Below are positions 3 through 26,222 of a DNA stretch of 28,060 nucleotides, in pieces. Each line of letters starts with the position of its first letter. The stretch's first letter is position 1. The notes beneath the pieces were generated by a model. It did not search any database. It was not told the DNA's origin and saw only the letters and a list, made by a program, of their open reading frames with translations. This DNA is from an uncultured Lentisphaerales bacterium (lineage in GTDB: Bacteria; Verrucomicrobiota; Kiritimatiellia; RFP12; UBA3636), in assembly GCA_964451695.1 (NCBI GenBank), contig CAYVJM010000001.1:1-28060 (forward strand), read 5' to 3'. The position numbers and the translations under genes were made by a program.

Positions 3-869
3 TTCGAGTTCATGGCGCGCGGGCTCGTGGACGGCTTCATCTCGGGCCGCCACCGCAGTCCGCGCAAGGGCTTTTCGGTCGAGTTCGCGGAGCACCGGCA
101 GTACGTGCCGGGCGACGACATCCGCAACATCGACTGGCGCGTGCTCGCGCGCAAGGACCGCTACTACGTCAAGCAGTACATGGAGGAGACGAACCTGCGC
201 GCCACGATCTTGCTGGACTGCTCCGGCTCGATGGCGTACGCGGGCGCCGCCGCGGCGTCGTTCGAGGGGCGCGTCCTTTCCAAGTTCGACTACGCGCGCT
301 ATCTCGCCGCCGCGCTGGCCTACCTGCTCGTGGGGCAGCAGGACGGCGTGGGGCTCGTGACCTTCGACAGCCGCATCCGCGACTTCCTCCCGGCCAAGGC
401 GATGGCCTCGCAGGTGCGCCACATCCTCCACCGCATCGACGCCGCCGAGCCGGGCGGCGAGACCGCGCTCTCGGACATCTTCAACGAAGTCGCCGAACGC
501 ATCCCGCACCGCGGCGTCGTCATCATCGTCAGCGACTTCTTCGACGACACGGCGGCCCTGGTCAAGGCGCTCCATCACTTCACCTTCCGCAAGCACGAGC
601 TGATCCTGCTCCACGTGATGGCGGAGGAGGAGCTGCGCTTCCCCTTCAACAGCTTTGCGCACTTCCAGGACCTCGAGTCGCCTCTCGAGCTCCAGCTCGA
701 CCCCAAGACGATCCGCGCCCTCTACCTCGAACGCATCGACGCCTTCGTCAAGACCCTCAAGGAGGGGAGCGGCCGGATGCAGGCGGACTACGTGCCGATC
801 AACACCCGCGACCCCTTCGAGAAGACGCTCGCCGACTATCTGGTGCGCCGACGCACCGGGGCGGGCTGA
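3..869 (+). CDS. DUF58 domain (vWA-like) protein, typical MoxR ATPase partner; probably 5'-truncated by the window edge
   Basis: Contains the motifs GRHRSPRKGFSVEFAEHRQYVPGDDIRNIDW, YYVKQYMEETN, LLDCSGSM and IVSDFFD. The frame is open from base 3 (FEFMAR...), and family members normally have extra residues before the GxHxS motif, so the ATG at 12 is probably internal. Confidence 0.9.
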   Translation, partial: FEFMARGLVDGFISGRHRSPRKGFSVEFAEHRQYVPGDDIRNIDWRVLARKDRYYVKQYMEETNLRATILLDCSGSMAYAGAAAASFEGRVLSKFDYARYLAAALAYLLVGQQDGVGLVTFDSRIRDFLPAKAMASQVRHILHRIDAAEPGGETALSDIFNEVAERIPHRGVVIIVSDFFDDTAALVKALHHFTFRKHELILLHVMAEEELRFPFNSFAHFQDLESPLELQLDPKTIRALYLERIDAFVKTLKEGSGRMQADYVPINTRDPFEKTLADYLVRRRTGAG

Positions 870-886
870 CAACGGGATTCCGACGC

Positions 887-3796
887 ATGCAATTCATTCA
901 CACGGCCATGCTCCTCGGTCTGCTCGCGGTGGCGATCCCCGTCGTCATCCACCTGCTGAACCGCAAGAACCTCGCCACGATCCGCTGGGGCGCGATGCGC
1001 TTCCTCCTGGACTGCGTGCGCCGCCGCCGTCGCCGCGTCCTCCTCGAGGAGATGCTCCTGCTCGCCTGCCGCTGCCTGATCCCCGCGCTGGCGGCGCTCG
1101 CCTTCGCGCGCCCCTTCATCCAGCCCGATTCGCGCATCCCCTGGGCGGTCGTGATGCCGATGACGCTGCTCGCGATCACCGGCTTCGGCATCAGCTTCGC
1201 CCTCTGGCAGCAACCCCGCTGGCGTCGCGGCCTCCTCATGGGCTCGACGGCGCTCTTCGTCCTCGCCCTCGCCGCCATCCTCTTCGAACGCCAGCTCAAC
1301 CTCCGCCGCTTCGGCCGCGGCGCGCACAAGGACGTCGTGCTCCTCGTCGACGGATCCTCCTCCATGGCGATGGTCTCCGAGGGGCGCAGCAACTTCGAGC
1401 GCGCCTGCGAAGAGGCGCAGAAGTACATCGACGAGGCGCCCCGCGGCACCGCCTTCAGCATCGTCCTCGGCGGCCCCGTTCCGCAGGTGCTCAATCCGGT
1501 GCCCATCTCCGACAAGCGCATCCTGCGCGAGACGCTCGCCCAGCTCAAGCCCGTCCACGGCACCCTCCAGATCATGGGCGCGCTCACCGCCTCCGCCGTG
1601 ACGCTCGCCTCCGGCAACAACGCCGTCAAGCAGATCGTCGTCATCGGCGACGGCCAGACCGTCGGCTGGAACCTCGGCGCCCCCGAGCGCTGGAAGACGA
1701 TCCAGCAGATCTTCGCCCAGCTCTCCACGACGCCCCAGGTCGTCTGGCGCACGCTCCCGCTGCCCGCCTCCATCCGCAACGTCGCCGTCGTCGATGTGAC
1801 CCTCGCGCGCGCCGTCGTCGGCACCGACCGCGAGGTGGGCATCCGCGTCACCATCCGCAATACGGGCGGCGAAGCCGTCACGCCCGACGCCGTCACCGTG
1901 AAGGCGGACGGCGCGGTCCTCGCGAGCCAGTCGCCCCCCCAGCTCGAGCCGGGCGCCAGCCACACGCTGCTCTTCCAGCATAAGTTCGTCAAGCCCGGCG
2001 CCGCCCTCGTCGAAGCCGTCGTCGCCGCCCAGGACGACCTGCCCGCGGACGACGTCTACCGCCGCGTCGTCCAGGTCGTGGACGCGCTCAAGGTGCTCAT
2101 CGTGGACGGCAGCGCCGCGTCCGGCCTCTTTGCCAAGTCCTCGACCTTCGTCGCGCTGGCGCTCCGCCCCGAGCTGGCGCGCCTCCGGGGCGGCGCCACC
2201 GCCGCCGCGGCGGACTTCCTTCTCGACCCCCAGGTGGAGCCTGCCGTCGCGGCCGCCGCGCGGACGTCCTTCACGGGCTTCGGCGTCGTCGTCCTGGCCG
2301 ACGTTCCGAAACTGCCGGACGCCGCCGCGAAGGCGCTCGCCGAGCACGTCGCCGCCGGCGGCGGGCTGCTCGTGCTGCCCGGCGCCTCGGCCTCCCCGGC
2401 CTTCTACAACGGCTGGACGCTCGACGGCCGCGCGATCCTGCCGCTGCCCCTCGGGCGGTGGCGGAGTGTGGACGCCGCCACGCCGGGCGATCCGATCGAT
2501 CCCAACGGCTTCACGCACGACGCGCTGCGCGGCGTGCGCACGGGCGGCGACCTGGGCGGCGTGCGCCCGCTCCAGCTCTGGACGCTCGACGAAGGGCTCT
2601 CCGGTGCCGCCCACGTCGCGGGCCGCCTCGCCTCGGGCGCTCCGTTCATGGCCGTGCGGCCCTTCGGCCGCGGCACCGTGGCGCTGGCCGCGTTCCCGTT
2701 CGACGCCACCGTCTCCGATCTGCCTGCGCGGCGCAGCTTCGTGCCGCTCATGCACGAGCTGGCCTACCACCTCGCCCGCCCCGTCTCCGCGGACTTGAAC
2801 CTCCTCCCCTCGGAAGGCGCCACGATCCTGCTGGCCCCGGCCGCCGGCGCCGTCGCCGGGGACGCCGGCGGGCGCGGCCTCGTCGGCCGCTACTTCAAGC
2901 GCCAGGGGCTGCGTGGCGAGTCCCTGCGGCGCGTTGATTCGAAGATCGACTTCAACTGGGGGACGGGCAGCCCGATGAAGGGAATCCCCGGCGACCGCTT
3001 CTCGGTCGTCTGGACCGGATCGCTCGTCCCGCCGGTCTCGGGCCAGTACGCGTTCAGCCTCGACTTCGACGATCGCGCCTCGCTGACGATCGACGGGCGC
3101 GCGCCCTCCGGCCCCCTCGCGCTCGATGCGGGGCGTCCGCACGCCCTGCGCATCACGCTGGAGGAGGATTGGGAGCACGCCTACATCCACCTCTTCTGGT
3201 CCCGCGACGGCGGGCCGAAGGAGATCGTGCCTCCCGAGGCGCTCAGCCCGGCCTCGCCGGGCGGTGGCGAGGGCTCCGGCGACATCGTCGACATCCTCGA
3301 CCCCAACGGCGAGCGTTTCCACGGCGAAATCTTCGCCGCGGAGGGCGGCCTGTCGCTGCGCGTCGCCCGCAGCCTGACTCCCGGTCTCTACCAGGTCTCC
3401 GTTCCCTCGGCGTTGGCGCCGCGCCTGGCGGGCGTGACGGCGGCGGACGGCCGGATCCTCTTCAGCGTGGCGGCTGGCTCGGAGGAGAGCACGCTGGAGG
3501 CGCTGTCGACGGCTCAGACGGAATTCCTGCTCAAGTACATTTCGCTCTCGACGGCCACGCGCATGGAGGACGTGCTGAGCGCGCTGCGCGGCCAGGCCTT
3601 CGGCAAGGAAATCTGGCGGATTCTCGCCTTCGCGGCGTTCGCCTTCCTCGTCGCGGAAGTCGCGCTCACGCGGTGGATTTCGATCCAGCGGCGGATGGGC
3701 GACGAGCGGGACGTGGACTTCACCAACGCGGGACGGGCCGGGACGGTCGCGTTCCGGGATTCGCTCGCCCAGATTCGCGAGCTGCAAGACGGCTGA
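887..3796 (+). CDS. BatA N-terminal/vWA membrane protein with Ig-like, class I GATase-like and PA14-like domains (969 aa)
   Basis: BatA-type N-terminus (LLAVAIPVVIHLLNR...RRRRRRVLLEEMLLLACR); MIDAS motif DGSSS plus IGDGQ; GATase-like segment VVLADVPKL...ALAEHVAAGGGLLVLPG; PA14-like segment GLVGRYF...RRVDSKIDFNWGTGSP...FSVVWTGSL; C-terminal TM helix EIWRILAFAAFAFLVAE. Confidence 0.85.
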   Translation: MQFIHTAMLLGLLAVAIPVVIHLLNRKNLATIRWGAMRFLLDCVRRRRRRVLLEEMLLLACRCLIPALAALAFARPFIQPDSRIPWAVVMPMTLLAITGFGISFALWQQPRWRRGLLMGSTALFVLALAAILFERQLNLRRFGRGAHKDVVLLVDGSSSMAMVSEGRSNFERACEEAQKYIDEAPRGTAFSIVLGGPVPQVLNPVPISDKRILRETLAQLKPVHGTLQIMGALTASAVTLASGNNAVKQIVVIGDGQTVGWNLGAPERWKTIQQIFAQLSTTPQVVWRTLPLPASIRNVAVVDVTLARAVVGTDREVGIRVTIRNTGGEAVTPDAVTVKADGAVLASQSPPQLEPGASHTLLFQHKFVKPGAALVEAVVAAQDDLPADDVYRRVVQVVDALKVLIVDGSAASGLFAKSSTFVALALRPELARLRGGATAAAADFLLDPQVEPAVAAAARTSFTGFGVVVLADVPKLPDAAAKALAEHVAAGGGLLVLPGASASPAFYNGWTLDGRAILPLPLGRWRSVDAATPGDPIDPNGFTHDALRGVRTGGDLGGVRPLQLWTLDEGLSGAAHVAGRLASGAPFMAVRPFGRGTVALAAFPFDATVSDLPARRSFVPLMHELAYHLARPVSADLNLLPSEGATILLAPAAGAVAGDAGGRGLVGRYFKRQGLRGESLRRVDSKIDFNWGTGSPMKGIPGDRFSVVWTGSLVPPVSGQYAFSLDFDDRASLTIDGRAPSGPLALDAGRPHALRITLEEDWEHAYIHLFWSRDGGPKEIVPPEALSPASPGGGEGSGDIVDILDPNGERFHGEIFAAEGGLSLRVARSLTPGLYQVSVPSALAPRLAGVTAADGRILFSVAAGSEESTLEALSTAQTEFLLKYISLSTATRMEDVLSALRGQAFGKEIWRILAFAAFAFLVAEVALTRWISIQRRMGDERDVDFTNAGRAGTVAFRDSLAQIRELQDG

Positions 3797-3818
3797 TTTC
3801 GGAGGCGGCGGCGCGACT

Positions 3819-6950: not shown

Positions 6951-6974
6951 GGCGTGGCGGAAGGGGAAAGTGAC

Positions 6975-16743: not shown

Positions 16744-18012
16744 ATGCAGAAGTTCAACTATGTGGCGCTGGATGCGCAGGGCAAGGAGCAGCGGGGCGTG
16801 GTCGAGGCGAAGGACCAGAGCCAGGCGATCGCGGCGCTGCGGCAGCACAACTTGGTGCCGCAGACCGTTTCGCCGGTCGCCGGCGGGGGCAAGGCGAAGT
16901 CCAAGTCCATGGGCGCCATGGAGATCAACATCAAGATGCCGGCCTTTCTCCGCGGGCGGGTGAAGCCCAAGGACCTGATGGTGCTGACGCGCCAGCTCGC
17001 GACGCTGGTCGATTCCGGCCTGCCGCTCATCCGGGGTCTGCGCATCCTGACGAAGCAGACGAAGAACGCGCAGCTCAAGGATGCGCTCCAGGGAATGGGC
17101 ACGGCCGTCGAGGGCGGCGCGACGTTCTCCGAGGCGCTGGCGCAGTATCCGAAGATCTTCGACCACCTCTACGTGAACATGGCCAAGGCGGGCGAGGCGG
17201 GCGGCGTGCTCGAGCAGTCGCTGTCGCGTCTGGCGGAGTTTCTGGAAAAGGCCGAGAAGATCAAGAACAAGGTCAAGAGCGCGATGACGTACCCGACCGT
17301 CGTGCTCATCGTGGCCCTGGGCATCACGGGCTTCCTGATGGCCGCGGTCATTCCGAAATTCGAAAAGGTCTTCACCGACCTCCTCGGCGAGGGCAAGCAG
17401 ATGCCGCCGCTCACGAAGTTCGTCATGAACCTGAGCAGCACGGTGACGGAGCGGGGGACGGTGATTCCGATCGCCGTGGGCCTGGCCCTGATCTTCGTCG
17501 GGACGAAGCTCTGGTACAAGACGGCCACGGGCCGCCTCGTCCTCGACCGCCTGAAGCTCTACATCCCCGGCGTGGGGCCCCTGATCCTGAAGTCCTCGAT
17601 CGGTCGCTCCACGCGCACGCTGGGCACGCTCATGCAGTCGGGCGTGCCCGTCCTCCAGGCGCTGGACATCGTGCGCGACACGTCGGGCAACGCCGTGATC
17701 GCCAACGCCTACCAGGCCATCCACGAGAGCGTCAAGGAGGGCGAGAGCATGACGCCGCCGATGGAGCGCGCGAAGGTGTTCCCGGCCATGGTGGTCAGCA
17801 TGGTGGACGTCGGCGAGGAGACGGGCGCGCTGCCCAACATGCTCGGACGCATCGCCAACACGTACGACGACGAGGTGGACAACGCCGTCGACGCGATGAC
17901 CTCGATCATCGAGCCGGTCATGATCGTGTTCCTCGCCGTCGTCGTCGGCACGATCGTCATCGCGATGTTCATGCCCCTCACCACGATCATCAGCGGCATG
18001 AGCGGCAACTAG
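16744..18012 (+). CDS. Type II secretion F / type IV pilus PilC inner-membrane platform protein
   Basis: MQKFNYVALDAQGK, TRQLATLVDSGLPL, FSEALAQYPKIFDHLYVNMAKAGEAGGVL, KVKSAMTYP, SGVPVLQAL, VGEETGAL, IEPVMIVFLA. RBS GGAGAGG. Confidence 0.95.
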   Translation: MQKFNYVALDAQGKEQRGVVEAKDQSQAIAALRQHNLVPQTVSPVAGGGKAKSKSMGAMEINIKMPAFLRGRVKPKDLMVLTRQLATLVDSGLPLIRGLRILTKQTKNAQLKDALQGMGTAVEGGATFSEALAQYPKIFDHLYVNMAKAGEAGGVLEQSLSRLAEFLEKAEKIKNKVKSAMTYPTVVLIVALGITGFLMAAVIPKFEKVFTDLLGEGKQMPPLTKFVMNLSSTVTERGTVIPIAVGLALIFVGTKLWYKTATGRLVLDRLKLYIPGVGPLILKSSIGRSTRTLGTLMQSGVPVLQALDIVRDTSGNAVIANAYQAIHESVKEGESMTPPMERAKVFPAMVVSMVDVGEETGALPNMLGRIANTYDDEVDNAVDAMTSIIEPVMIVFLAVVVGTIVIAMFMPLTTIISGMSGN

Positions 18013-18040: not shown

Positions 18041-18877
18041 ATGAAAGGGAAATCCAACCGCCGCGGAGGCTTCACGCTCATCGAGATCATGGTCGTGATC
18101 CTCGTCATCATCCTGCTCGCGGGCATGGTCTTCAAGCTCATGGGCGTCGTTGGCGCCAAGAACGAGGAGGCCAACACCAAGGCCGTCCTCCAGAAGCTGG
18201 CCAACGCCCTCGAGGAGTACCGCGCCATCTACGGCAAGTACCCCCCCGTCTACAACTACCCCGGCCTTGGGCAGCCCATCCGCTACGAGTACGCCAACGC
18301 CAAGTACCTCGAGGCGGAGGTCGGCCCGGAGTTCGCCCAGACGCTCAAGAACGCATCCAAGGACAAGGACATCTGGGGCGAGGGCGGGCGGCTCTACACC
18401 TTCGGCCTGCTATCCTACTTCGTCCCCCGCTACAAGGGCCATGCGGATCGCTCTCCGGCCATCTTCGTCGGCGGCGAGCCGGACGACCCCAAAACCGCCT
18501 CGGACGAAAGCGACACGTACAACAAGGACCGGACCATCAACCAGTGGGAGACCCACAACGTCAGGCGCTCCCGCGAGCGCATGAGCCAGTTCGATCTCCA
18601 GGAGAATATCGATTCCGCCCGCAAGATCCTGACCCACCTCGACGGTGCGCTCAACGCGGACGGCAGCGTGTCGAGCTACGGCATCATCGGGGGCGGCTGG
18701 ATCGGTTGCATGTACAATGACATTCCGTACCACAACGACCACCTCTATGTCTTGGACGGCTGGAAGCGCGAGCCGCGCTACCAGTCCAACCCGCCGCACG
18801 ACACCTACAAGCTTTGGTCCGTCGGTCCCGACGGCGTCAGCGGCACCTCGGACGACATCGTCCTGACAAGCGAATAG
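18041..18877 (+). CDS. GspG-like pseudopilin 1 with large central insertion (278 aa)
   Basis: Class III signal RRGG|FTLIE; LANALEEYRAIYGKYP; LDGWKREPRY; C-terminal YKLWSVGPDGVSGTSDDI. Confidence 0.85.
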   Translation: MKGKSNRRGGFTLIEIMVVILVIILLAGMVFKLMGVVGAKNEEANTKAVLQKLANALEEYRAIYGKYPPVYNYPGLGQPIRYEYANAKYLEAEVGPEFAQTLKNASKDKDIWGEGGRLYTFGLLSYFVPRYKGHADRSPAIFVGGEPDDPKTASDESDTYNKDRTINQWETHNVRRSRERMSQFDLQENIDSARKILTHLDGALNADGSVSSYGIIGGGWIGCMYNDIPYHNDHLYVLDGWKREPRYQSNPPHDTYKLWSVGPDGVSGTSDDIVLTSE

Positions 18878-18890
18878 GAGCGCGCCGCCC

Positions 18891-19631
18891 ATGAATCCCG
18901 TCATCTCATCGCCCCGCAGGGGCTTCACGCTGATCGAGTTGCTCGTCTCCCTCGCCGTCATCGGCATTTTGGCGAGCCTCTTCTACCCCGCGCTCAACAA
19001 AATCCGCCAGAAGGCCTGGGACACGTCCGCCCACGAACTCTGCGTCCAGGCCGCGACGGCCTGGAACCAGCTCCTGCTCACCCATCGGCGCTTCCCCTCG
19101 CGCGACCTCATCGAGTGGGCCGCCGACCTCGACAAGGACGGCGACGTCGAGAAGGTCGATGGCGACATGGCCTTCCCGATGATGACGGGCACGACGTGCC
19201 TCCTCAACTGGTGGAAGCCCACCCATCCGCTCCCCGAGTTCGACCTGCCCAACTACAAGAAGTGGCTCAAGACAGCCGCGCGAGGCAACAAGGAGGTCGA
19301 CTTCGACGACTGGGACCAGATTCCGGACTGGCCGAACGACCTCGTGCTCGAGCGCTCCGTCGAGCAGAAGAAATGGGGCCTTGTCGCCCCCTGGGCGAAC
19401 CGCTGGATCAAGAACGCAGCGACGCCCACGACCGAAGGGCTCCAGAACGTCGTCACGGCGACTGTCTGGGTGCTGCTCGATCTCGACGGCGACGGCAAGG
19501 TCACGCTGCCCGGTTCTCTGCCCGGCGGCGTCGGGCTCGATTCCGAGGGCAAGTCGCTGATCATTCCCAAGTCCGTCGTCGCCTGGGTTTTCACCGGTTC
19601 CAAGCGGGACAAGGTCGTTACAAGCTGGTAG
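18891..19631 (+). CDS. Prepilin-type (G-like) protein 2 with two DxDxDG loops (246 aa)
   Basis: RRG|FTLIELLVSLAVIGILASLFYPAL; DLDKDG and DLDGDG. Confidence 0.85.
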   Translation: MNPVISSPRRGFTLIELLVSLAVIGILASLFYPALNKIRQKAWDTSAHELCVQAATAWNQLLLTHRRFPSRDLIEWAADLDKDGDVEKVDGDMAFPMMTGTTCLLNWWKPTHPLPEFDLPNYKKWLKTAARGNKEVDFDDWDQIPDWPNDLVLERSVEQKKWGLVAPWANRWIKNAATPTTEGLQNVVTATVWVLLDLDGDGKVTLPGSLPGGVGLDSEGKSLIIPKSVVAWVFTGSKRDKVVTSW

Positions 19632-19666
19632 CGTGCGCCGGCGCCGCCGGTCAGGAGGTTTTCGCC

Positions 19667-20371
19667 ATGGACAAGCCATTTTTCAAGCGAACCGCGGGCT
19701 TCACCCTCGTCGAACTGCTCATTGTCGTGGGCATTCTCGCCGTGCTGCTCAGCCTGCTCACCCCGGCGATTCTCAAGAACATCGCCGTCGTCAGCGAACG
19801 ACAGCACGACAACGAGCGCAAGCTGCTCGAGGCCGCGCTGATGGAGTACTGGCACGACCAGGGCGAATGGCCGATTCCGAAGAAGGGCAAGGACGGCTAC
19901 AAAAAGCCCGATGCCAACTCCCGCTTGTCGTTCCGCTACGACAACTACGTCGTCTTCAACACCCTGCTCCGCAAGTCCCTGCTCAACGAGCGCAGCGGGA
20001 AGGACTACATCGACCCCGCCGTCCATACGACGACCCGCGAGAAGTGCGACGAAAAGGACTATCCCAACTTTCTCGTCGCCCGGCTCGTGGACGCCATCGA
20101 GGGGGACCACGACGTCAGCGCCCGCAAGGAGCTGACGCTCGTGTACTGGAAGAAGCTCATCGAGTGCCCGGAATGCCCGACCGACGACCTCCGCCGCTTC
20201 CAGGGCATCGGGGCCTCGAAATGCAGCAACCCGAACTGCAAATTTCTGAAGTCCAAGGGCTATGCCTATGCGTTTTCGCCCTCCCAGAAGCGACGCTTTG
20301 TGAAGGGGCTTCTGCCCTACAGGGTCACGATCGATCTGCTCAACAACCGCGCCATCGTGACCGACGACTAG
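19667..20371 (+). CDS. Prepilin-type (G-like) protein 3 with Cys4 knuckle (234 aa)
   Basis: AGGAGGT RBS before the ATG at 19667; KRTAG|FTLVELLIVVGILAVLLSLLTP; YWHDQGEWP; CPEC-x15-CSNPNC. Confidence 0.85.
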   Translation: MDKPFFKRTAGFTLVELLIVVGILAVLLSLLTPAILKNIAVVSERQHDNERKLLEAALMEYWHDQGEWPIPKKGKDGYKKPDANSRLSFRYDNYVVFNTLLRKSLLNERSGKDYIDPAVHTTTREKCDEKDYPNFLVARLVDAIEGDHDVSARKELTLVYWKKLIECPECPTDDLRRFQGIGASKCSNPNCKFLKSKGYAYAFSPSQKRRFVKGLLPYRVTIDLLNNRAIVTDD

Positions 20372-20418
20372 CCGGGGCGCCGGGCCTCGACACCAATCCC
20401 GATCCAAGGAGAATCTGA

Positions 20419-21294
20419 ATGACCAGACAGGACACGCACACGCGAGAAACGCGCCGTCCGCAGGGCTTCACCCTGCTGGAGCTCATCGCCGTGATGGGCA
20501 TCATCGTGGCGATGTCCGCCATCGTCGTGGGCGGCTACAAAGGGATGATGCGCGCCATCGCCCAGCGCACCGGCGTGGACGCCCTCGCCAAGGCCATCAC
20601 GCTCTGCCGTCAATACGCCACGATCGACGGCAAGGACACGTACTTCTGGATCACCGGCTTCGACACGTATGTCATCTGCCGCAAGGCCGGCCAGGTCGAC
20701 GCCAGCACCGAGCGCGTCAGGAACCGCCCGCTCGAAGACTACGAGCGCAGCGCCTGCGGCTACCTGCCCAAGTCGGGCTCCTTCTCCGCCTACTGGATCA
20801 CCGATTCCTACGCCGATCTCGGTTCGGCGGAGGACTATACGCGCAACATGGACGAAGACGCCAAGGAGGGGGCCGTCGAGCAGATGAAGGAGAAGACCTA
20901 CAACGGCGGTCTCGTCTTCGACTTCACGGCCGGGGAGGTCGCCAGAATCCGCTATCCCGCCTGGTTTGTCGCCTCCCAGGGCTATTGGATCATCGGCCTC
21001 ATGGGGCCGGATCGGGAGGACACCCCGCCTGGCTTCAAGCCCAGTAGCGAATACGGCTGGATGGTCGGGCCCGAATACCAGCTCCCCAAGGGCTATGTGT
21101 TCGACCCCGGCCATTACCAATACGACAAAACCAGCGGCGAATTCAAGGAGGGCGAGCGCTTCTTCTTCCGCCCCGACGGCACGCCGGACGAGAATACGAC
21201 GATCACCCTCAACGAGGTCGGCTCCGAGAAGAAGCCCTTCGTCACCATCCGCGGAGACGGGACGATCTCGTGGGACTATCAGGACGGCAAATGA
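20419..21294 (+). CDS. GspH/FimT-like minor pseudopilin (291 aa)
   Basis: AAGGAG RBS; RRPQG|FTLLE; ITLCRQYATIDGK; C-terminal YQLPKG...FFFRPDG...VTIRGDGTI. Confidence 0.75.
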   Translation: MTRQDTHTRETRRPQGFTLLELIAVMGIIVAMSAIVVGGYKGMMRAIAQRTGVDALAKAITLCRQYATIDGKDTYFWITGFDTYVICRKAGQVDASTERVRNRPLEDYERSACGYLPKSGSFSAYWITDSYADLGSAEDYTRNMDEDAKEGAVEQMKEKTYNGGLVFDFTAGEVARIRYPAWFVASQGYWIIGLMGPDREDTPPGFKPSSEYGWMVGPEYQLPKGYVFDPGHYQYDKTSGEFKEGERFFFRPDGTPDENTTITLNEVGSEKKPFVTIRGDGTISWDYQDGK

Positions 21295-21314
21295 AGGTCA
21301 GGGGAGGCCACACC

Positions 21315-21920
21315 ATGCGCGGCATATTCAACAGGACGGGATTCTCCCTCATCGAGGTCAACATGGCGATCCTCATCGCCGCCGGGGGGCTGATGTCGCT
21401 CTTCTCGCTCCTCCCGGGCGGGCTTCGCCACAGCGTCATGTCCCAGGAGGATCTCTACCAGTCCACTTTCGCCAGTTCGCTGCTCGACACCATTTCCGCC
21501 AACGTCAAGAAGATCGACGATGTCGGCGATTGGAACAACGCGAAGACCTTCTGGGAATACGCCGTCGGCAAGCAGGGCGACCAGTGCGTACAGATCAAAG
21601 GCATCCCGGCTGCCCTGAAAAATGCCACCGCGGCGAAGAGCGACGGCGCCATTTCCGACGCCACGAAGCAGCTCCTGACGGATGAAAATGGAAGCGTCTG
21701 GTTCGCCTGCCAAGAAGAAGACGAGGTCGACGACGACCCGCCCTCCGTCACCGTGCTGCTCCCGACCCAGTATTTCATCCGCCTCAAGCAGGAGGCTGGC
21801 ATCGGGGGCGCACCGGCCCGCTACACGGTTTCCGTGACGTCGACCCAGATGCCGTCCCCGGCGGCCTACCACCGCAACGCCATCTACACGATGGACTACT
21901 ACTTCTGCGGCCAGCCATGA
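21315..21920 (+). CDS. GspI/PilV-like minor pseudopilin (resembles Verru_Chthon cassette B type; 201 aa)
   Basis: GGAGG RBS before the ATG at 21315 (alternative start: ATGA overlap at 21291); NRTG|FSLIEVNMAILIAAGGLMSLFSLLPGGL. Confidence 0.72.
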   Translation: MRGIFNRTGFSLIEVNMAILIAAGGLMSLFSLLPGGLRHSVMSQEDLYQSTFASSLLDTISANVKKIDDVGDWNNAKTFWEYAVGKQGDQCVQIKGIPAALKNATAAKSDGAISDATKQLLTDENGSVWFACQEEDEVDDDPPSVTVLLPTQYFIRLKQEAGIGGAPARYTVSVTSTQMPSPAAYHRNAIYTMDYYFCGQP

Positions 21921-22648
21921 GCCGCCGCGCCGTTTCGCCGCAAGGAACCCCGAACATGATCGAAAGACAACGTAGACACGGAGCCGCCGGCTTCTCGCTC
22001 ATCGAGGTGATGGTCGCCACCGGCGTCCTGCTTGTCGTGGTGCTCATGGTAGGCGCCGTTTTCCGCCAGGCCTCCTCGTCCTGGGACGGCGGCTACGCCC
22101 GCGCCGAAGGCGGCATGATCGTGCGCGGCGTCCTCGGCGCCATCCAGCGCGACCTCTCCCAGGCCGTCGATGGACGTCGGTTCCTCGAAGATTGGGATGT
22201 TCCCGTCAAGGTGAGCGGCGGCGAGGTGCAATTCGTCCGCCCCTACTTCGACCAGGAGACGAAGGAGGAGCAGTACCACCTCGTCACCTACACGGCGGGA
22301 GCGGGCAGCGTCAAGCGCAAGTGGCAGCTCCTCAAGTGGAACAACACCGACAAGACCTGGTCGGCCGGCAAGGGGGGCGACGACGATGTCGAGATCTACA
22401 AGGACGGCAAGGGCATGCGCCCCGGCTATGGCTTCCGGGCGCGCTTCGAGATCGCGGGGGACGAAGTGACGGATCCCGGCGTCGGCCTCGGTCCCGACGG
22501 CAAGCCGAAGAAGGGCGTCTTCTGGACCGTGCCCACCGTGTCCCTGCGCGTCGACCTCGTCCGCACCGGAAGCTTCAGCGGGCTGCGCGTGCGCTCGCTC
22601 GGCCGCGACGGCAAGAAGGACACGGACGACGACATCCTGGTTCGTTGA
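21917..22648 (+). CDS. GspJ/PilW-like minor pseudopilin with GspG-like C-terminal motif
   Basis: ATGA overlap (alternative ATG at 21956 with AAGGA); AAG|FSLIEVMVATGVLLVVVLMVGAVF; IQRDLSQAV; ends with RSLGRDGKKDTDDDI. Confidence 0.75.
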   Translation: MSRRAVSPQGTPNMIERQRRHGAAGFSLIEVMVATGVLLVVVLMVGAVFRQASSSWDGGYARAEGGMIVRGVLGAIQRDLSQAVDGRRFLEDWDVPVKVSGGEVQFVRPYFDQETKEEQYHLVTYTAGAGSVKRKWQLLKWNNTDKTWSAGKGGDDDVEIYKDGKGMRPGYGFRARFEIAGDEVTDPGVGLGPDGKPKKGVFWTVPTVSLRVDLVRTGSFSGLRVRSLGRDGKKDTDDDILVR

Positions 22649-22665
22649 TTCGCGAGGAACGCATC

Positions 22666-23115
22666 ATGAAAGACCATTTCCAGAGAAACGGATTCAGCCT
22701 GATCGAGCTGCTCGCGGTCACCGCGATCATCGCCATCCTCGCCGGCATGATCGGGGTCGCCGCTTTCAACGCCCGGCAGAAGGCCTACAACACGATCGCG
22801 CGCACCGAGGTCCAGCAGCTCGCGACCGCCCTCAAGTCCTGGTGGGTCGCCAAGGGGGAATGGCCCAAGGGCTTCCCGGCGGGCTCCGACACCGGCATCA
22901 GCGCCGACGTCATCCGCGAGTCCGGCCTGCGCGGCGACGTCGACGGCAACGTCTACCTCCAGATCCCCGACGACCGGTTCGAAGACGGGCTCTTCCTCGA
23001 CCCCTGGGGCCACCCGTATTTCGTCGAGATCGACGAGGTCACCGAGACCGAGGATGTCGAAACCTATCAGATCACCGTCAGCTTCGTGAACTCCGACAAG
23101 TACTATTTCGAGTAA
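22666..23115 (+). CDS. Short GspG-like pseudopilin 4 (149 aa)
   Basis: GAGGA RBS; QRNG|FSLIELLAVTAIIAILAGM; QQLATALKSWWVAKGEWP; FLDPWGHPY. Confidence 0.85.
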   Translation: MKDHFQRNGFSLIELLAVTAIIAILAGMIGVAAFNARQKAYNTIARTEVQQLATALKSWWVAKGEWPKGFPAGSDTGISADVIRESGLRGDVDGNVYLQIPDDRFEDGLFLDPWGHPYFVEIDEVTETEDVETYQITVSFVNSDKYYFE

Positions 23116-23125
23116 CGCCCGCGAT

Positions 23126-23191
23126 GAGGAACCACGAATGGACACGAATGGACGCCAATTCGTGTCTATTCGCGTCCATTCGTGGTTCTTC
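23126..23191. repeat. Intergenic hairpin built from decamer units
   Basis: gaacc-acgaatggac-acgaatggac-[gccaattcgt]-gtctattcgc-gtccattcgt-ggttc: a stem of about 25-28 bp with one mismatch and G-T pairs. Confidence 0.92.
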
Positions 23192-23222
23192 CTTCCCGCG
23201 CACCATTTGAGGTTCGTCCACT

Positions 23223-26222
23223 ATGAACAAACAGCAACAGCAACAACACCAGCGGCAATCCGGATCGGCCCTCGTGGTCGTCCTCGGCCTGCTGGCCGTG
23301 ATCATGCTCATGGCCGTGGCCTTCTCCATCTACATGCGCACGGAGCGCGCCGGCACGACGAACCTCCGCCACGCCCTCGTCGCCAAGCAGATGATGCAGT
23401 CCGCCATCGCCCGGACGATGCAGACCATCGACGAATCCTTTGAAGATCCGAAGAACACCTGGGCGGCGCCCAACTGGGACGAACCCTATCTGACCTCCCA
23501 CGAGCCGACCTCCGCCGACACGCGCCTCTACCAGTCCGCTCCCTGCGCCAACGACGCCGAGCGCACCAAGAACGCCCGCGTCCTGACGCGCGAAATCATG
23601 ATGCACCTGACTCCGGGGCAGCTCGCTCTCGCGGGCAATGCCAAGATCGACTGGGCCAGCATCAACTCCGGCGTATCCGCCGATTCGAGCAAGGACCCCA
23701 TCATGGGGCGCTACGCCTTCGTCGCCTTCGACGTCTCCGGCCTGCACGACATGAACAAGGCCGGCGCCGACGATCCCAAGAACGTCGCCAAGACGTACAA
23801 GGCCCGCGCCACCGACTTCGCCACGAACGCCGTCAACTACCAGGTCGGGGAGTCCCTCTTTTTCAACGCGACGTCCGGCACGTTCAAGCCCGACTATGAC
23901 AAGTTCGTCGAGGCGCGCGCCGAGCAGCCGTTCATGTCGATGGCGGACCTCTGGCGGAGGAGCGGGATTCCCAATGGCCCGGAGTCCTACAAGTTCGACA
24001 TCGACAAGGAGATCGTGCCCGACATCTTCACCACCTATTCGATGTCGCTCGAAGGCCTCGCCCCCGACGGCGCCATGAAGCTCCCCCTCGCGACCCTCGA
24101 GAACGATGCGCAGAAGACGGCCTACGCCAAGCTCGCGGCGCCGGTCTTCAAGAAGATGTTCGACGAGAACGGCGGCGAACGGGAGTTCCGGTTCAAAGTC
24201 GCGCCGAAGTTCACCCGATCGCAACTCGCCACCCAGGCCCTCGTCGACTACCTCGACGAGGACGACGTCCCCTGCGGCGGCATCGACAACGGGCGGAACG
24301 GCAGCGGCGGCCACCTGAATTTCCCCTGCACCGAGCCCGTCCCCCTCATTACCCAGGCCATGGCGAATTTCTCCATCGGCGCGCCGAAGAAATATGAGGA
24401 TCCCAGCGATCCGCTCAAGTCCTATCAGGAGTGGGAGGTCTCGTTCTTCGCCGTCTGCGAAGCGCAGTTTCTCAACGACAAGGTTCCCGCGAACCTCGCC
24501 TCGAAGAAGTATCAGTTGAAGATGGAGCTGGAGTTCATCGACCTGTACGATCTCCTGCCCGTCCTCTGGGGCCCTGAATGGCAGACGGGCACCGCCGGCT
24601 GGAAGGTCGATTTCATCGATGCGCCTTTCATGGCCAACGTCCAGACGATCTCCAGCCCATCCAAGAGTTTGACGGCGGGAAGCTACACCCAGCGCACGCT
24701 ATTCGCGAAGACACCCGACGCCGGGGTGAAGGTCCTGCGGGTCAGGGCCTACAACAAGGCCAGCGGTTCCCGCAAGTTCTCCCAATGCGAGGAGCAACTT
24801 GCCAAGGACTCCGTCCGAACCGAGATTCGCATCAAGGCCCAGGTCCTCAGCGGCTCCACGGTCGTCCAGCAGGTCCCGGCGCCGATTCTCGAAGCCAGGG
24901 CCGCCGAAAGCGGCTACCGCCTCAAGCTCGCTCCGGGGCTCTACCGGAACCCCGCGGAAGCGGGCAGGGCGGTCGAGAAGTTCGAGTTCGGCTGGGCGAT
25001 GTGCCTCGATCCGCGCTTCGCCTACAACACGGAGACGATGGGCAGGAACGGACTGACCGGCAGCGTCGGCCCCCGGTTCTGGGTGAACAACGACCACGCC
25101 CATGACGACCTCCTGGCCGGCGGGGACGCGGTGATGAAGCAGATCGCCGGCATGCTCACCGACGCCGAGCTGGCGGGCGCCCTTCAAATCAACGCGCTTG
25201 GAAACTGGTTGATCAAGGAGACCGTGTTCGCCGATTCCGCGCCGTCCTCCGCCAAGAACATCGCGGACATGTGGACGAACAAGTTGAAGATCTACCCGGA
25301 CGCATACCACCTCTCCAAGAAGGGGGGCAAGACGTTCCTCGAGACGGACATGAACGACCTGGCGACGATGCTGCAATCGCGCATCACGAACCTCCCGATG
25401 GTGTCGCCCGGCGAACTCGGCAACTTGCTGATCGGGCCCTGGGAGACGCTCTCGCTCTTCGCCTGCTTCCCCCCCGATTCCGGGGTCGAGCCCACCTTCC
25501 ACCGCGCGCTGGACTACTTCTGCATGGGCGAGGCGCGATATCCGACGATGGCCCAGATCGCCTCTGGGGCGACGACGGACCGACACCTCGCCGCCCTGCA
25601 GTCGGGCCGCATCAACTTGAATCCGCAGCGCCTCGTCGTCTCGAAGAGCGACATCTCCCCGCGCGGCGAGCAGATCCTCGATGGCGACAACTACCCCGAG
25701 TACAACAGCGATCCCCTCGTCTGCGTGCTGACCGGCGCTTGCATCAACGAAAAGCAGGCGACCCAGTTGGAGGCGGACGACGCCGAGAAGATCGCCGAGG
25801 CGTTCTACGCGGAGGCGAAGCAGCTCGAGAAGAAGGGCTCCAATCGCGGCGCGCTGATGATCTCGCGCGTCTCCGAACTCGGTCAGGGCAACGCGGCGGG
25901 CGACGCCAATCCCGTGCTCCAGGTGCTCATGGACGCGGCCACTCCTCTGAAAATCACCTGCGACGCCCACCGCGAAGCGCTCATCGCCAACTCGGTCAAC
26001 GCCCTCACCACCCGCGGGCAGAGCTTCCTCGTCATCATCCGCGCCGAGGCGTTCTCACCGCGCTACGGCTCCGACAGCCCCGACAACGGCACCACGCTCT
26101 CGACCACCTACGCCGTTGTCGAACTCTGGCGTGATCCCGAGCCCATGCGGGATCCCCAGGGCGCCATTATGAAGGGCTCCCCCACCCATCCCTGGGTGAT
26201 CCGCTCCATCCGCTGGTTCTAG
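23223..26222 (+). CDS. Giant GspK/PilX-like minor pseudopilin (resembles Verru_Chthon cassette A type; 999 aa)
   Basis: SG|SALVVVLGLLAVIMLMAVAF with no Glu+5, as in GspK/PilX; RYAFVAFDVSGLHDMN; PFMSMADL; ALVDYLDEDD; GRINLN; ISRVSEL; TTRGQSFLVIIRAE. Confidence 0.72.
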   Translation: MNKQQQQQHQRQSGSALVVVLGLLAVIMLMAVAFSIYMRTERAGTTNLRHALVAKQMMQSAIARTMQTIDESFEDPKNTWAAPNWDEPYLTSHEPTSADTRLYQSAPCANDAERTKNARVLTREIMMHLTPGQLALAGNAKIDWASINSGVSADSSKDPIMGRYAFVAFDVSGLHDMNKAGADDPKNVAKTYKARATDFATNAVNYQVGESLFFNATSGTFKPDYDKFVEARAEQPFMSMADLWRRSGIPNGPESYKFDIDKEIVPDIFTTYSMSLEGLAPDGAMKLPLATLENDAQKTAYAKLAAPVFKKMFDENGGEREFRFKVAPKFTRSQLATQALVDYLDEDDVPCGGIDNGRNGSGGHLNFPCTEPVPLITQAMANFSIGAPKKYEDPSDPLKSYQEWEVSFFAVCEAQFLNDKVPANLASKKYQLKMELEFIDLYDLLPVLWGPEWQTGTAGWKVDFIDAPFMANVQTISSPSKSLTAGSYTQRTLFAKTPDAGVKVLRVRAYNKASGSRKFSQCEEQLAKDSVRTEIRIKAQVLSGSTVVQQVPAPILEARAAESGYRLKLAPGLYRNPAEAGRAVEKFEFGWAMCLDPRFAYNTETMGRNGLTGSVGPRFWVNNDHAHDDLLAGGDAVMKQIAGMLTDAELAGALQINALGNWLIKETVFADSAPSSAKNIADMWTNKLKIYPDAYHLSKKGGKTFLETDMNDLATMLQSRITNLPMVSPGELGNLLIGPWETLSLFACFPPDSGVEPTFHRALDYFCMGEARYPTMAQIASGATTDRHLAALQSGRINLNPQRLVVSKSDISPRGEQILDGDNYPEYNSDPLVCVLTGACINEKQATQLEADDAEKIAEAFYAEAKQLEKKGSNRGALMISRVSELGQGNAAGDANPVLQVLMDAATPLKITCDAHREALIANSVNALTTRGQSFLVIIRAEAFSPRYGSDSPDNGTTLSTTYAVVELWRDPEPMRDPQGAIMKGSPTHPWVIRSIRWF

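What the first reader, a model, noticed from the sequence alone, without database searches (positions are those of the whole stretch)
23223..26222. 999-aa GspK-like tip protein with a roughly 370-aa insertion
Seen: K-like landmarks in order, namely the E5-less N-terminus, FDVSGLHDMN (like DExGKxNxN), PFMSMADL, VDYLDEDD (24246; like DWxDxD), then about 370 aa of beta-rich, Cys-containing sequence (about 24270-25400), then SPGELG, GRINLN and TRGQSFLV. Established: GspK is about 320-340 aa, caps the pseudopilus and has an acidic Ca2+-binding region. Inference: the protein is three times normal size because an adhesin or substrate-selection domain has been inserted at the filament tip, and it probably determines the cassette's specificity.
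Basis: partly seen in the sequence, partly recalled or inferred. Interest (0 to 1): 0.66.

Follow-up and report, generated by a model that had tools for sequence, protein, structure and literature searches.

The report
Giant GspK-like pilus tip protein
This 999-residue protein is a three-fold enlarged version of GspK, the cap subunit of type II secretion and type IV pilus filaments; it carries a large inserted domain of unknown fold and belongs to an unannotated family found across Kiritimatiellia bacteria.

Summary
It has a prepilin-type N-terminus without Glu+5. It ends a conserved operon: F, G, G, G, H, I, J, G, K.

Sequence models see only the N-terminal helix (GspK 36 bits against a cutoff of 130; TIGR02600 31 against 332; Pfam nothing). 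A confident AlphaFold model (pLDDT 84, pTM 0.82) was aligned to 48,161 PDB chains. GspK (3CI0_K, Z 11.0) and XcpX (5VTM_X, Z 10.8) came top, and the next hit scored 5.7.

Corrections:
- The extra mass comes in three blocks: aa 181-348, aa 349-725 (the noted insert) and aa 851-930.
- The insert is a beta-sandwich plus a helical part with no significant structural relative (best Z 4.7). An adhesin or lectin identity is therefore unsupported.
- The insert is present in all 38 aligned homologues. It evolves about twice as fast as the frame but is not hypervariable.
- Only one copy was found in this genome.
- This genome also has a canonical-size G-H-I-J-K set, and all 66 sampled class genomes have a canonical-size GspK. 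The cassette is therefore a second filament system.

Verdict: new variant of a known kind (modular GspK-class tip pilin). Function of the insert is unknown. The only earlier scan notes are on this same stretch, none on other DNA.

The parts
23223..26222 (+). Gene for the 999-aa GspK-class giant minor pilin (P0001)
   Evidence: ORF and translation; AF2 model pLDDT 84.2, pTM 0.82; top structural hits GspK and XcpX
23223..23264 (+). Class III (prepilin) leader, aa 1-14, ending in invariant Gly14
   Evidence: G14 invariant, S15/A16/L17 nearly invariant in 38 homologues; NF037980 and TIGR02600 N-terminal matches
23265..23435 (+). Hydrophobic alpha-1 helix (aa 15-71) lacking Glu at +5
   Evidence: DSSP helix 16-71; +5 is I, V or M in 38/38; hhalign to a canonical GspK profile, E 2e-4
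23487..23762 (+). First strands of the pilin beta-sheet (aa 89-180), ending in the G-x-x-D-x-N motif (FDVSGLHDMN)
   Evidence: Strands 145-149 and 160-170; G173, D176 and N178 invariant or near-invariant; most conserved part shared with distant 700-1150-aa relatives
23763..24266 (+). Helical expansion 1 (aa 181-348), ending in the DxxDxD helix (VDYLDEDD)
   Evidence: Helices 185-344; D342, D345 and D347 conserved; weak colinear hhalign to the DWxDxDD motif of canonical GspK
24267..25397 (+). Nested insert (aa 349-725): beta-sandwich aa ~374-600 plus helical part aa ~611-725
   Evidence: Folded alone: pLDDT 84.3, pTM 0.86; no structural relative above Z 4.7 or TM 0.4; present in 38/38 homologues, 34-40% identity in close ones; conserved motifs PLNxPCTEPVP, VQQVPAP and GWAxCxDPRFAYDT
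25398..25772 (+). GspK alpha-domain core (aa 726-850): SPGELG ... GRINLN, helix-hairpin-helix / SAM-like region
   Evidence: hhalign of aa 717-801 to canonical GspK 186-264, ending GRvNLN/GKVNVN, E 0.0036 (weak); G733, N798 and N800 invariant; weak AFDB hit 'T2SS protein K first SAM-like domain' over aa 721-999
25773..26012 (+). Helical expansion 3 (aa 851-930)
   Evidence: Helices 851-871, 897-904 and 914-927; no counterpart in length in the 362-aa canonical GspK
26013..26219 (+). Closing strands of the pilin beta-sheet (aa 931-999), including the C-terminal strand 991-998
   Evidence: Strands 933-946, 956-970 and 991-998; 66% identity in close orthologues, the most conserved region together with the N-terminus; R931, G932, Q933, H989 and W991 conserved
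16744..18012 (+). Platform protein GspF/PilC homologue, first gene of the operon
   Evidence: PF00482 x2, E 1e-65; scores equally as PilC and GspF; what lies upstream of it differs among the 10 upstream ORFs checked in 8 related loci
18041..23115 (+). Seven prepilin genes: G1 18041-18877, G2 18891-19631, G3 19664-20371, H 20419-21294, I 21270-21920, J 21917-22648, G4 22666-23115
   Evidence: N_methyl/GFxxxE and GspG/H/PilV/XpsI/GspJ-type N-terminal matches; N-termini GFTLIE, GFSLIE and similar; same order in about 25 related loci

Best explanation
The gene encodes the GspK/PilX-class apical minor pilin of a second type IV filament operon (F-G-G-G-H-I-J-G-K) that is conserved across Kiritimatiellia. 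The protein keeps the GspK plan. It has a prepilin leader and a hydrophobic alpha-1 helix without Glu+5, so no subunit can dock above it. It has a small pilin beta-sheet closed by its own C-terminal strand, and an alpha-domain inserted into that sheet. In this family the alpha-domain has grown from about 180 to about 750 residues, through two helical additions and one nested module of about 375 residues (beta-sandwich plus helices). By analogy with GspK-GspI-GspJ and with ComZ and CpaL (inferred, not shown here), it would pair with the I- and J-like pilins encoded just upstream. That complex would prime polymerisation on the adjacent F platform, using an ATPase encoded elsewhere, and the protein would stay at the filament apex. 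The insert would then face outward, so it is the most likely site for contact with a ligand, surface or cargo. What it binds is unknown, as is whether the filament is a periplasmic pseudopilus or a surface pilus.
For: The ORF is intact and the family is conserved over its full length in 38 homologues of 1000-1400 aa. GspK and Verru_Chthon_A HMMs match the N-terminus only. Glu+5 is absent in 38/38. The full-length AF2 model has pLDDT 84.2 and pTM 0.82. VIA-align against 48,161 PDB chains put 3ci0_K first (Z 11.0, 234/280 residues aligned) and 5vtm_X second (Z 10.8, 215/259), both spanning model 43-999, with the next hit at Z 5.7. AFDB clusters returned large PVC proteins named 'PilX', 'Verru_Chthon cassette protein A' and 'T2SS K first SAM-like'. 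Weak but colinear profile alignments link the DxxDxD and ELG...GRvNLN regions to canonical GspK. The gene order F-G1-G2-G3-H-I-J-G4-K is conserved in about 25 loci from Kiritimatiellia, Lentisphaerae and Verrucomicrobiota MAGs. What lies upstream of F is variable and mostly housekeeping, and no gene downstream of K is broadly conserved, so the operon runs from F to K. A prepilin peptidase, several T2SS-E ATPases and three secretins lie elsewhere in the MAG. The family was found in 22/22 sampled genomes of the same order and 48/66 of the class, usually as one copy. Precedents from the literature: GspK lacks Glu+5 and supplies the C-terminal strand in cis, and CpaL carries an approximately 470-residue middle region (PMC13533445); ComZ is a GspK-like tip pilin with an approximately 380-residue inserted domain (PMC6561018); modular pilins are widespread (PMC8179133).
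Against: Beyond the N-terminal helix, sequence similarity to GspK is statistically weak (E 0.0036 and 0.1; hhalign probabilities below 10%). Foldseek against PDB did not find GspK. I could not inspect coordinates, so the exact insertion points and the in-cis C-terminal strand rest on DSSP order and motif colinearity. No complex with I and J was modelled. Nothing shows that the protein is processed, assembled or tip-located. No ATPase or secretin can be assigned to this operon in a 404-contig MAG. An extra G-like gene lies between J and K, unlike classic gsp operons. The insert has no recognisable binding fold.
Confidence: 0.7

Rival explanations
1. It is the tip of the organism's main type II secretion pseudopilus, and the insert selects or pushes secreted substrates such as the many polysaccharide-degrading enzymes of Kiritimatiellia.
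For: G1 and the J-like protein end in the GspG-type SxGxDG...DDI motif. The fold is closest to the T2SS proteins GspK and XcpX, and a C-terminal strand appears to be supplied in cis as in T2SS. No PilY1-like gene lies in the operon.
Against: The same genome has a separate G-H-I-J-K set of canonical sizes. Its K carries PF21687, PF12836 and PF14341 and scores 113 bits on the GspK model, and a GspE lies on the same contig. A canonical-size GspK was found in 66/66 sampled genomes of the class, including every genome that has the giant form. A cap of roughly 110 kDa (size estimated from 999 aa) is about three times the mass of the 362-aa canonical GspK here; whether it would fit a secretin vestibule was not tested (my own reasoning).
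Confidence: 0.15
2. It is a member of the Verru_Chthon cassette protein A family (TIGR02600), the large first protein of the multi-copy four-gene cassettes of Verrucomicrobia and Chthoniobacter.
For: TIGR02600 matches aa 14-82 (E 7e-8) in this protein and in 28 of 38 homologues. The I- and J-like neighbours give weak hits to cassette proteins B and C. An AFDB cluster named Verru_Chthon cassette protein A is a Foldseek hit at E 2e-11.
Against: The score is 30.9 bits against a curated cutoff of 332.3, and only 71 of 1296 model positions match. No protein in the genome reaches the cutoff. TM-scores to the AFDB entry are 0.28 and 0.25. The operon has nine genes including an F platform, not four, and was found as a single copy.
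Confidence: 0.05
3. It is not a filament subunit. It is an inner-membrane-anchored periplasmic or envelope protein that merely retains a pilin-like N-terminal anchor, and it acts as a scaffold or regulator of the neighbouring pilins.
For: The leader is atypical (Gln-rich) and cleavage is unproven. All subunits of the cassette are enlarged. No motor or secretin lies nearby.
Against: The Gly at -1 and the Ser-Ala-Leu after it are conserved in 38/38 or nearly so. The complete GspK pilin sheet is retained and is the most conserved part of the protein. The position after I and J in an operon that starts with the platform gene is conserved across the class.
Confidence: 0.1

Closest known systems
GspK / XcpX, the T2SS tip minor pseudopilin (PDB 3CI0 chain K, 5VTM chain X; NF037980, PF03934/PF21687)
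   Same: Prepilin leader; alpha-1 helix without Glu+5; pilin beta-sheet with an alpha-domain inserted in it and closed by C-terminal strands; DxxDxD and G(R/K)xNxN motifs in the same order; gene placed after I and J homologues. Best structural match, Z 11.0 and 10.8.
   Different: 999 aa against about 320-360. The HMM score of 36 bits is far below the cutoff of 130, and no Pfam T2SSK domain is detected. The alpha-domain is expanded about four-fold and includes a nested module of about 375 aa with an orphan fold. A G-like gene sits between J and K. It coexists with a canonical GspK in the same genome.
ComZ of Thermus thermophilus (competence pilus tip pilin, PMC6561018)
   Same: A GspK-like pilin fold carrying an inserted domain of about 380 residues, argued on steric grounds to fit only at the filament tip.
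   Different: The ComZ insert is a beta-solenoid placed between the penultimate and last strands. Here the insert is a beta-sandwich plus helices nested inside the GspK-type alpha-domain. ComZ was not among the 50 rows shown for the structural scan.
CpaL of the Caulobacter Tad pilus, and PilY1/PilC-dependent tip complexes (PMC13533445)
   Same: A large tip-complex subunit (about 600 aa) with a pilin-like domain, a big middle region and a C-terminal beta-strand that completes the sheet.
   Different: A different filament class (Tad/T4c). No sequence or structural match was recovered here. The present protein has the GspK alpha-domain motifs.
Modular pilins such as PilB and PilC of Streptococcus sanguinis and CofB (PMC8179133)
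   Same: The principle of grafting a bulky module onto a pilin so that the filament presents it, probably at the tip.
   Different: In those proteins the module is appended after the pilin module and usually has a recognisable domain (vWA, lectin). Here the module is nested and has no recognisable family.
Verru_Chthon cassette protein A (TIGR02600)
   Same: A large PVC-group protein with a GspK-like N-terminal helix, encoded next to prepilin-type proteins. A weak N-terminal HMM match and a Foldseek hit were found.
   Different: The score is a tenth of the family cutoff, TM is below 0.3, and the operon composition and copy number differ.

Membership tests
GspK (T2SS minor pseudopilin K; NF037980, PF03934/PF21687) | Whole-protein HMM score above the curated cutoff | tested here: not met
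   NF037980 gives 36.4 bits against a cutoff of 130, matching aa 12-88 only. Pfam gives no family even at E 10.
GspK (T2SS minor pseudopilin K; NF037980, PF03934/PF21687) | Class III signal peptide with no Glu at +5 of the mature protein | tested here: met
   G14 is invariant and +5 is V, I or M in 38/38 homologues.
GspK (T2SS minor pseudopilin K; NF037980, PF03934/PF21687) | Pilin fold with an alpha-domain inserted into the beta-sheet | tested here: met
   3ci0_K scored Z 11.0 (234/280 residues aligned) and 5vtm_X Z 10.8, both spanning model residues 43-999. They were the top two of 48,161 chains, with the next at Z 5.7.
GspK (T2SS minor pseudopilin K; NF037980, PF03934/PF21687) | C-terminal beta-strand supplied in cis that completes the sheet | tested here: inconclusive
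   DSSP shows a terminal strand at 991-998 after strands 933-946 and 956-970, with H989 and W991 conserved. Coordinates could not be inspected and no I/J complex was modelled.
GspK (T2SS minor pseudopilin K; NF037980, PF03934/PF21687) | Encoded directly after gspI and gspJ within a gsp cluster that includes E and D | tested here: not met
   H-, I- and J-like genes do precede it, but an extra G-like gene intervenes. No E ATPase or secretin lies in the window or next to the operon in the related loci examined.
GspK (T2SS minor pseudopilin K; NF037980, PF03934/PF21687) | Forms the GspI-GspJ-GspK tip trimer | not testable with these tools
   No multimer prediction or experiment was available.
Verru_Chthon cassette protein A (TIGR02600) | HMM score above the cutoff over most of the 1296-position model | tested here: not met
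   30.9 bits against 332.3, covering positions 1-71 only. No hit over the cutoff was found in the genome.
Modular type IV pilins (sensu Raynaud et al. 2021, PMC8179133) | N-terminal pilin module plus an additional structural module not specific to filament biology | tested here: met
   There is a pilin frame plus a confidently folded extra module of about 375 aa with no filament-related match. Unlike the appended modules of that definition, this module is nested, as in GspK and ComZ.
ComZ-like tip pilins | Beta-solenoid inserted between the last two strands of a GspK-like pilin domain | tested here: not met
   The insert is an antiparallel beta-sandwich with helices (DSSP). No solenoid or ice-binding-protein hits were found. 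The insert lies inside the alpha-domain, between the DxxDxD and ELG motifs.

The most novel reading that the evidence does not exclude
The F-G-G-G-H-I-J-G-K operon encodes a distinct, PVC-restricted class of type IV filament in which every subunit is enlarged. Its apex would carry a cap of about 110 kDa, perhaps too bulky for a standard secretin vestibule (not tested). The orphan beta-sandwich module of that cap would be a new ligand-binding fold, for example for capturing sulfated or other complex polysaccharides or for attaching to particles. This system would work alongside the canonical T2SS found in the same genomes.
Probability: 0.2. Interest if true: 0.7.

Novelty: new variant of a known kind. 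Interest (0 to 1): 0.5.

Why it matters
GspK-class proteins are the apical minor pilins thought to prime assembly of type IV filaments and pseudopili and to face whatever the filament touches. Only a few enlarged tip pilins have been studied (ComZ, CpaL, CofB). This family shows that the GspK alpha-domain itself can act as a scaffold for a nested module of 375 aa or more. It is also not a one-off. It was found in 22/22 sampled genomes of the same order and 48/66 of the class Kiritimatiellia. A profile search of 1.84 billion cluster representatives found about 200 strong hits (E <= 1e-30) and about 1,700 at E <= 1e-3. None of the 43 close homologues carries a name or a real Pfam domain (one has an unrelated PF01554 hit), and the 10 distant representatives scanned gave only sub-threshold N-terminal matches. 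Kiritimatiellia include isolates reported to degrade sulfated polysaccharides (my background knowledge, not checked here). A second filament system with a large, faster-evolving apical module is therefore a reasonable candidate for substrate or surface recognition. The practical gain is an annotation: these ORFs can now be labelled GspK-like giant minor pilins, and the insert (aa 349-725) is a defined target for binding and structural studies.

Tried and rejected
1. Pfam on the full protein at E <= 10 gave nothing.
2. A profile of the family searched against all PDB sequences gave no hit at E <= 10.
3. Foldseek of the full model against PDB gave only noise (best E 0.02; haemolysins and Cys-loop receptors) and missed GspK. 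The exhaustive VIA-align scan was needed.
4. hhalign of the family profile against the genome's own GspK and against a 34-sequence canonical GspK profile aligned only the N-terminal helix. After slicing the alignment, the C-terminal and middle frame gave colinear but weak matches (E 0.0036 and 0.1). I treat these as consistent with the structural result, not as proof.
5. The insert folded alone was searched in PDB (Foldseek and VIA-align wide), AFDB clusters, the ESM Atlas by structure and the ESM Atlas by features. No significant relative appeared. The recurring GH2 Ig-like sandwich resemblance (Z <= 4.7, TM <= 0.37) is below the tool's stated noise level. An adhesin or lectin assignment is rejected as unsupported.
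6. TIGR02600 membership is rejected on score.
7. No within-genome paralogue of the giant K was found, so the test of a conserved frame with hypervariable inserts among paralogues could not be run as proposed. The orthologue comparison shows a roughly two-fold faster insert, not hypervariability.
8. I looked for a conserved partner gene downstream of K and for an ATPase upstream of F in related loci. Neither is conserved.
9. The F protein could not be typed as PilC or GspF, because the scores are equal.
10. Literature searches for this family in Kiritimatiellia, or under the name 'Verru_Chthon cassette', found nothing.
Full report
**Observation**

Window 23223-26222 (+) is a single open frame of 999 codons. 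A GAGG lies about 9 nt upstream of the ATG.
- FDVSGLHDMN at aa 169
- PFMSMADL at aa 236
- VDYLDEDD at aa 341 (nt 24243)
- SPGELG at aa 728
- GRINLN at aa 795
- TRGQSFLV at aa 930

The N-terminus (MNKQQQQQHQRQSG|SALVVVLG...) is a short polar leader ending in Gly, followed by a hydrophobic helix. Position +5 is Val.

**The family**

A word-indexed search of 5.8 billion proteins returned 43 homologues, mostly 1000-1400 aa. None is named, and none carries a Pfam domain except one truncated 732-aa hit with an unrelated PF01554 match.

In a 38-sequence alignment (A1, down to 25% identity) the family is colinear over the whole length. Position +5 is I, V or M in 38/38 and never Glu. The motifs are therefore real, selected features.

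A profile search of 1.84 billion cluster representatives found 1703 proteins at E <= 1e-3, 1044 at E <= 1e-10 and 206 at E <= 1e-30.
- About 45 of the listed hits match end to end.
- The remaining listed hits are largely 700-1150-aa proteins that match in several stretches. The recurrent ones are profile positions about 4-245, 765-826 and 940-1042. These correspond to aa 9-249, 711-771 and 874-975 of this protein.
- At superfamily level there is thus a conserved frame with differing or very diverged middles.

Within the orthologous group the insert is always present, with coverage of about 0.9.
- In close orthologues it is 34-40% identical, against 50-66% for the N- and C-terminal frame.
- In distant ones the figures are 18-24% against 34-52%.
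- The insert therefore evolves faster, but it is not hypervariable.

**Sequence-model tests**

- Pfam finds nothing, even at E 10.
- NCBIfam finds only the N-terminal helix: T2SS_GspK gives 36.4 bits (cutoff 130) over aa 12-88, and Verru_Chthon_A (TIGR02600) gives 30.9 bits (cutoff 332.3) over aa 14-82. The same pattern holds in 27-28 of 38 members and in most of the ten distant relatives scanned; two gave no match at all.
- The protein is therefore not a member of either curated family by score.

**Structure**

AlphaFold2 with A1 gave pLDDT 84.2 and pTM 0.82. The order of elements is:
- helix 16-71
- strands 89-91, 145-149 and 160-170
- a helical block, 185-344
- a beta-rich block, 374-600
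- helices, 620-720
- a mixed block, 729-850
- helices, 851-927
- strands 933-946, 956-970 and 991-998

Foldseek against PDB found nothing. The exhaustive VIA-align scan of 48,161 representative chains ranked GspK (3ci0_K, Z 11.0, 234 of 280 residues aligned, model 43..999) first. XcpX (5vtm_X, Z 10.8, 215 of 259) came second. Rank 3 onward scored Z <= 5.7 and matched only the long N-terminal helix.

Three things make this a convincing fold assignment. Two independent GspK orthologues were found, most of each target chain is covered, and the gap to the background is clear.

AFDB cluster hits are large PVC-group proteins. Some are labelled PilX, Verru_Chthon cassette protein A, or 'T2SS protein K first SAM-like domain' (the last over aa 721-999).

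**Where the extra mass sits**

The genome's own canonical GspK is 362 aa (contig C32). It carries PF21687, PF12836 and PF14341, scores 113 bits on NF037980, and aligns to XcpX around its DWTDEDD motif.

| Interval | Canonical GspK | This protein |
|---|---|---|
| Leader Gly to DxxDxD | about 145 aa | 327 aa |
| DxxDxD to the 'EL..G' motif | about 28 aa | about 380 aa |
| 'EL..G' to G(K/R)xNxN | about 55 aa | about 62 aa |
| NxN to the C-terminus | about 100 aa | about 199 aa |

Sliced profile-profile alignments give weak but colinear support for these equivalences. Residues 717-801 align to canonical GspK 186-264 at E 0.0036, and the DxxDxD helix aligns at E 0.1.

The tripling in size therefore comes from three expansions, all inside what is the alpha-domain in GspK: aa 181-348, aa 349-725 and aa 851-930. 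I could not view coordinates, so the exact boundaries are inferred from DSSP and motif order.

**The insert**

Residues 349-725 were folded alone with a sub-alignment (A2). The model has pLDDT 84.3 and pTM 0.86. It shows long antiparallel strands (model residues 27-246) followed by helices (275-368).

It has no significant structural relative:
- The best VIA-align Z is 4.7, to Ig-like sandwiches within GH2 glycosidases. The tool's own stated noise level is 7-8.
- The best Foldseek PDB E-value is 0.008, with TM 0.13.
- The only AFDB hit with E < 1e-3 aligns to the same entry (A0A7X7RG30) that matched the full-length model at E 2e-18, so it is probably a fragment of the same family.
- ESM Atlas TM is at most 0.37, and the feature search returns unnamed Verrucomicrobiota clusters.

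The most conserved insert motifs are PLNxPCTEPVP, VQQVPAP and GWAxCxDPRFAYDT. The only two conserved cysteines, C369 (28/38) and C594 (32/38), lie in the first and last of these. A stapling disulfide is possible but unverified. Nothing supports a specific adhesin, lectin or enzymatic identity.

**Context**

The gene is the last of a tight operon:
- GspF/PilC-like platform, 16744-18012
- three G-like prepilins: 18041-18877, 18891-19631 and 19664-20371
- H-like, 20419-21294
- I/PilV-like, 21270-21920
- J-like, 21917-22648
- a short G-like prepilin, 22666-23115
- K, 23223-26222

CorA follows. The same order recurs in about 25 loci from Kiritimatiellia, Lentisphaerae and 'Verrucomicrobia' MAGs.

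What precedes F differs from locus to locus; the ORFs that could be annotated include transhydrogenase, an RNA methyltransferase, alanine racemase, DnaA and a sigma-54 activator. No gene after K is broadly conserved. The unit is therefore F to K, with no ATPase or secretin attached.

The MAG is 2.57 Mb in 404 contigs and 75% complete. Elsewhere it holds at least nine T2SS-E ATPase genes (13 matches, some on contig fragments), three secretin matches, several more F genes and a prepilin peptidase.

It also has a second G-H-I-J-K set of canonical sizes on contig C32, with a GspE on the same contig, and a 605-aa K-like ORF on C234.

In an even sample of 200 high-quality genomes of the phylum:
- The giant K profile hit 22/22 genomes of the same order and 48/66 of the same class, but only 1 outside the class. 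It usually appeared once per genome.
- The canonical GspK profile hit 66/66 genomes of the class.

The two therefore coexist, and the giant-K operon is an additional filament system rather than the sole T2SS pseudopilus.

**Mechanism**

Shown here:
- GspK fold
- no Glu+5
- operon position after I and J
- a conserved terminal strand
- conservation across the class

Inferred from the literature on GspIJK, PilK/PilX, ComZ and CpaL:
- The protein is processed by the prepilin peptidase.
- It nucleates a tip complex with the I- and J-like pilins on the F platform.
- It stays at the apex because nothing can dock on a subunit lacking Glu+5.
- It displays its enlarged alpha-domain, including the 375-aa module, at the very tip.

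I give about 0.7 to the tip or initiator pilin reading. I give about 0.35 to the insert being a ligand- or surface-binding module. Whether the fibre is periplasmic or surface-exposed stays open.

**Novelty**

The principle is known: modular or insert-bearing tip pilins, and GspK itself as a pilin with an inserted domain. This particular family is new in several respects: its four-fold expanded alpha-domain, the orphan fold of the nested module, and its class-wide conservation beside a canonical GspK. It is not described in the searchable literature and is not covered by Pfam or NCBIfam. I rate it a new variant of a known kind, of moderate interest.

Noticed in passing
window 23124-23196 (spacer between the short G-like gene and K): A near-perfect long hairpin fills most of the 107-nt spacer. 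The RNA MFE is -57.7 kcal/mol and the z-score is -8 against shuffles. No U-tract follows. A partial palindromic copy lies on contig C6:10286-10319. It could be an attenuator or processing site that sets a lower K:pilin ratio, or a REP-like element.
   Followed up: partly
window 19633-20418 versus 19664-20371: The mechanical ORF 19633-20418 is an Arg-rich wrong-frame artefact of the high GC content. The real gene is 19664-20371, a third G-like prepilin (MDKPFFKRTAGFTLVELL...).
   Followed up: partly
G000 contig C32 (L062: 1566-5261 and 12743-14569): A second pseudopilin set of canonical sizes: G, H (274 aa), I (129 aa), J (341 aa) and K (362 aa, with PF21687, PF12836 and PF14341). It is followed by ExbB/ExbD-like genes and a GspE with an MshEN domain. 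Homologues of this K are annotated GspK in Kiritimatiellae and Lentisphaerae MAGs.
   Followed up: yes
G000 contig C234 (L041:1492-3309, minus strand): A 605-aa ORF whose last 150 residues match the C-terminal third of the GspK model (54 bits). It is a third, intermediate-size K-like protein in the same genome and is unrelated in sequence to the 999-aa one.
   Followed up: no
window 21917-22648 and 18041-18877: The J-like protein ends in RSLGRDGKKDTDDDI and the first G-like pilin ends in WSVGPDGVSGTSDDI. Both are the GspG-type C-terminal acidic motif. All pilins of the cassette are 1.5-2 times the usual size (G1 278 aa, H 291 aa, I about 200 aa, J 243 aa).
   Followed up: partly
window 12-11293: A DUF58 gene and a BatA/vWA/PA14 gene are followed by two proteins of about 1000 aa with no significant Pfam match and then a prenyltransferase/squalene-cyclase-like protein. 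This is a Bat/MoxR-type envelope module upstream on the same strand, separated from the pilin operon by Sua5, purD and a CCA-adding or poly(A) polymerase gene on the minus strand.
   Followed up: no
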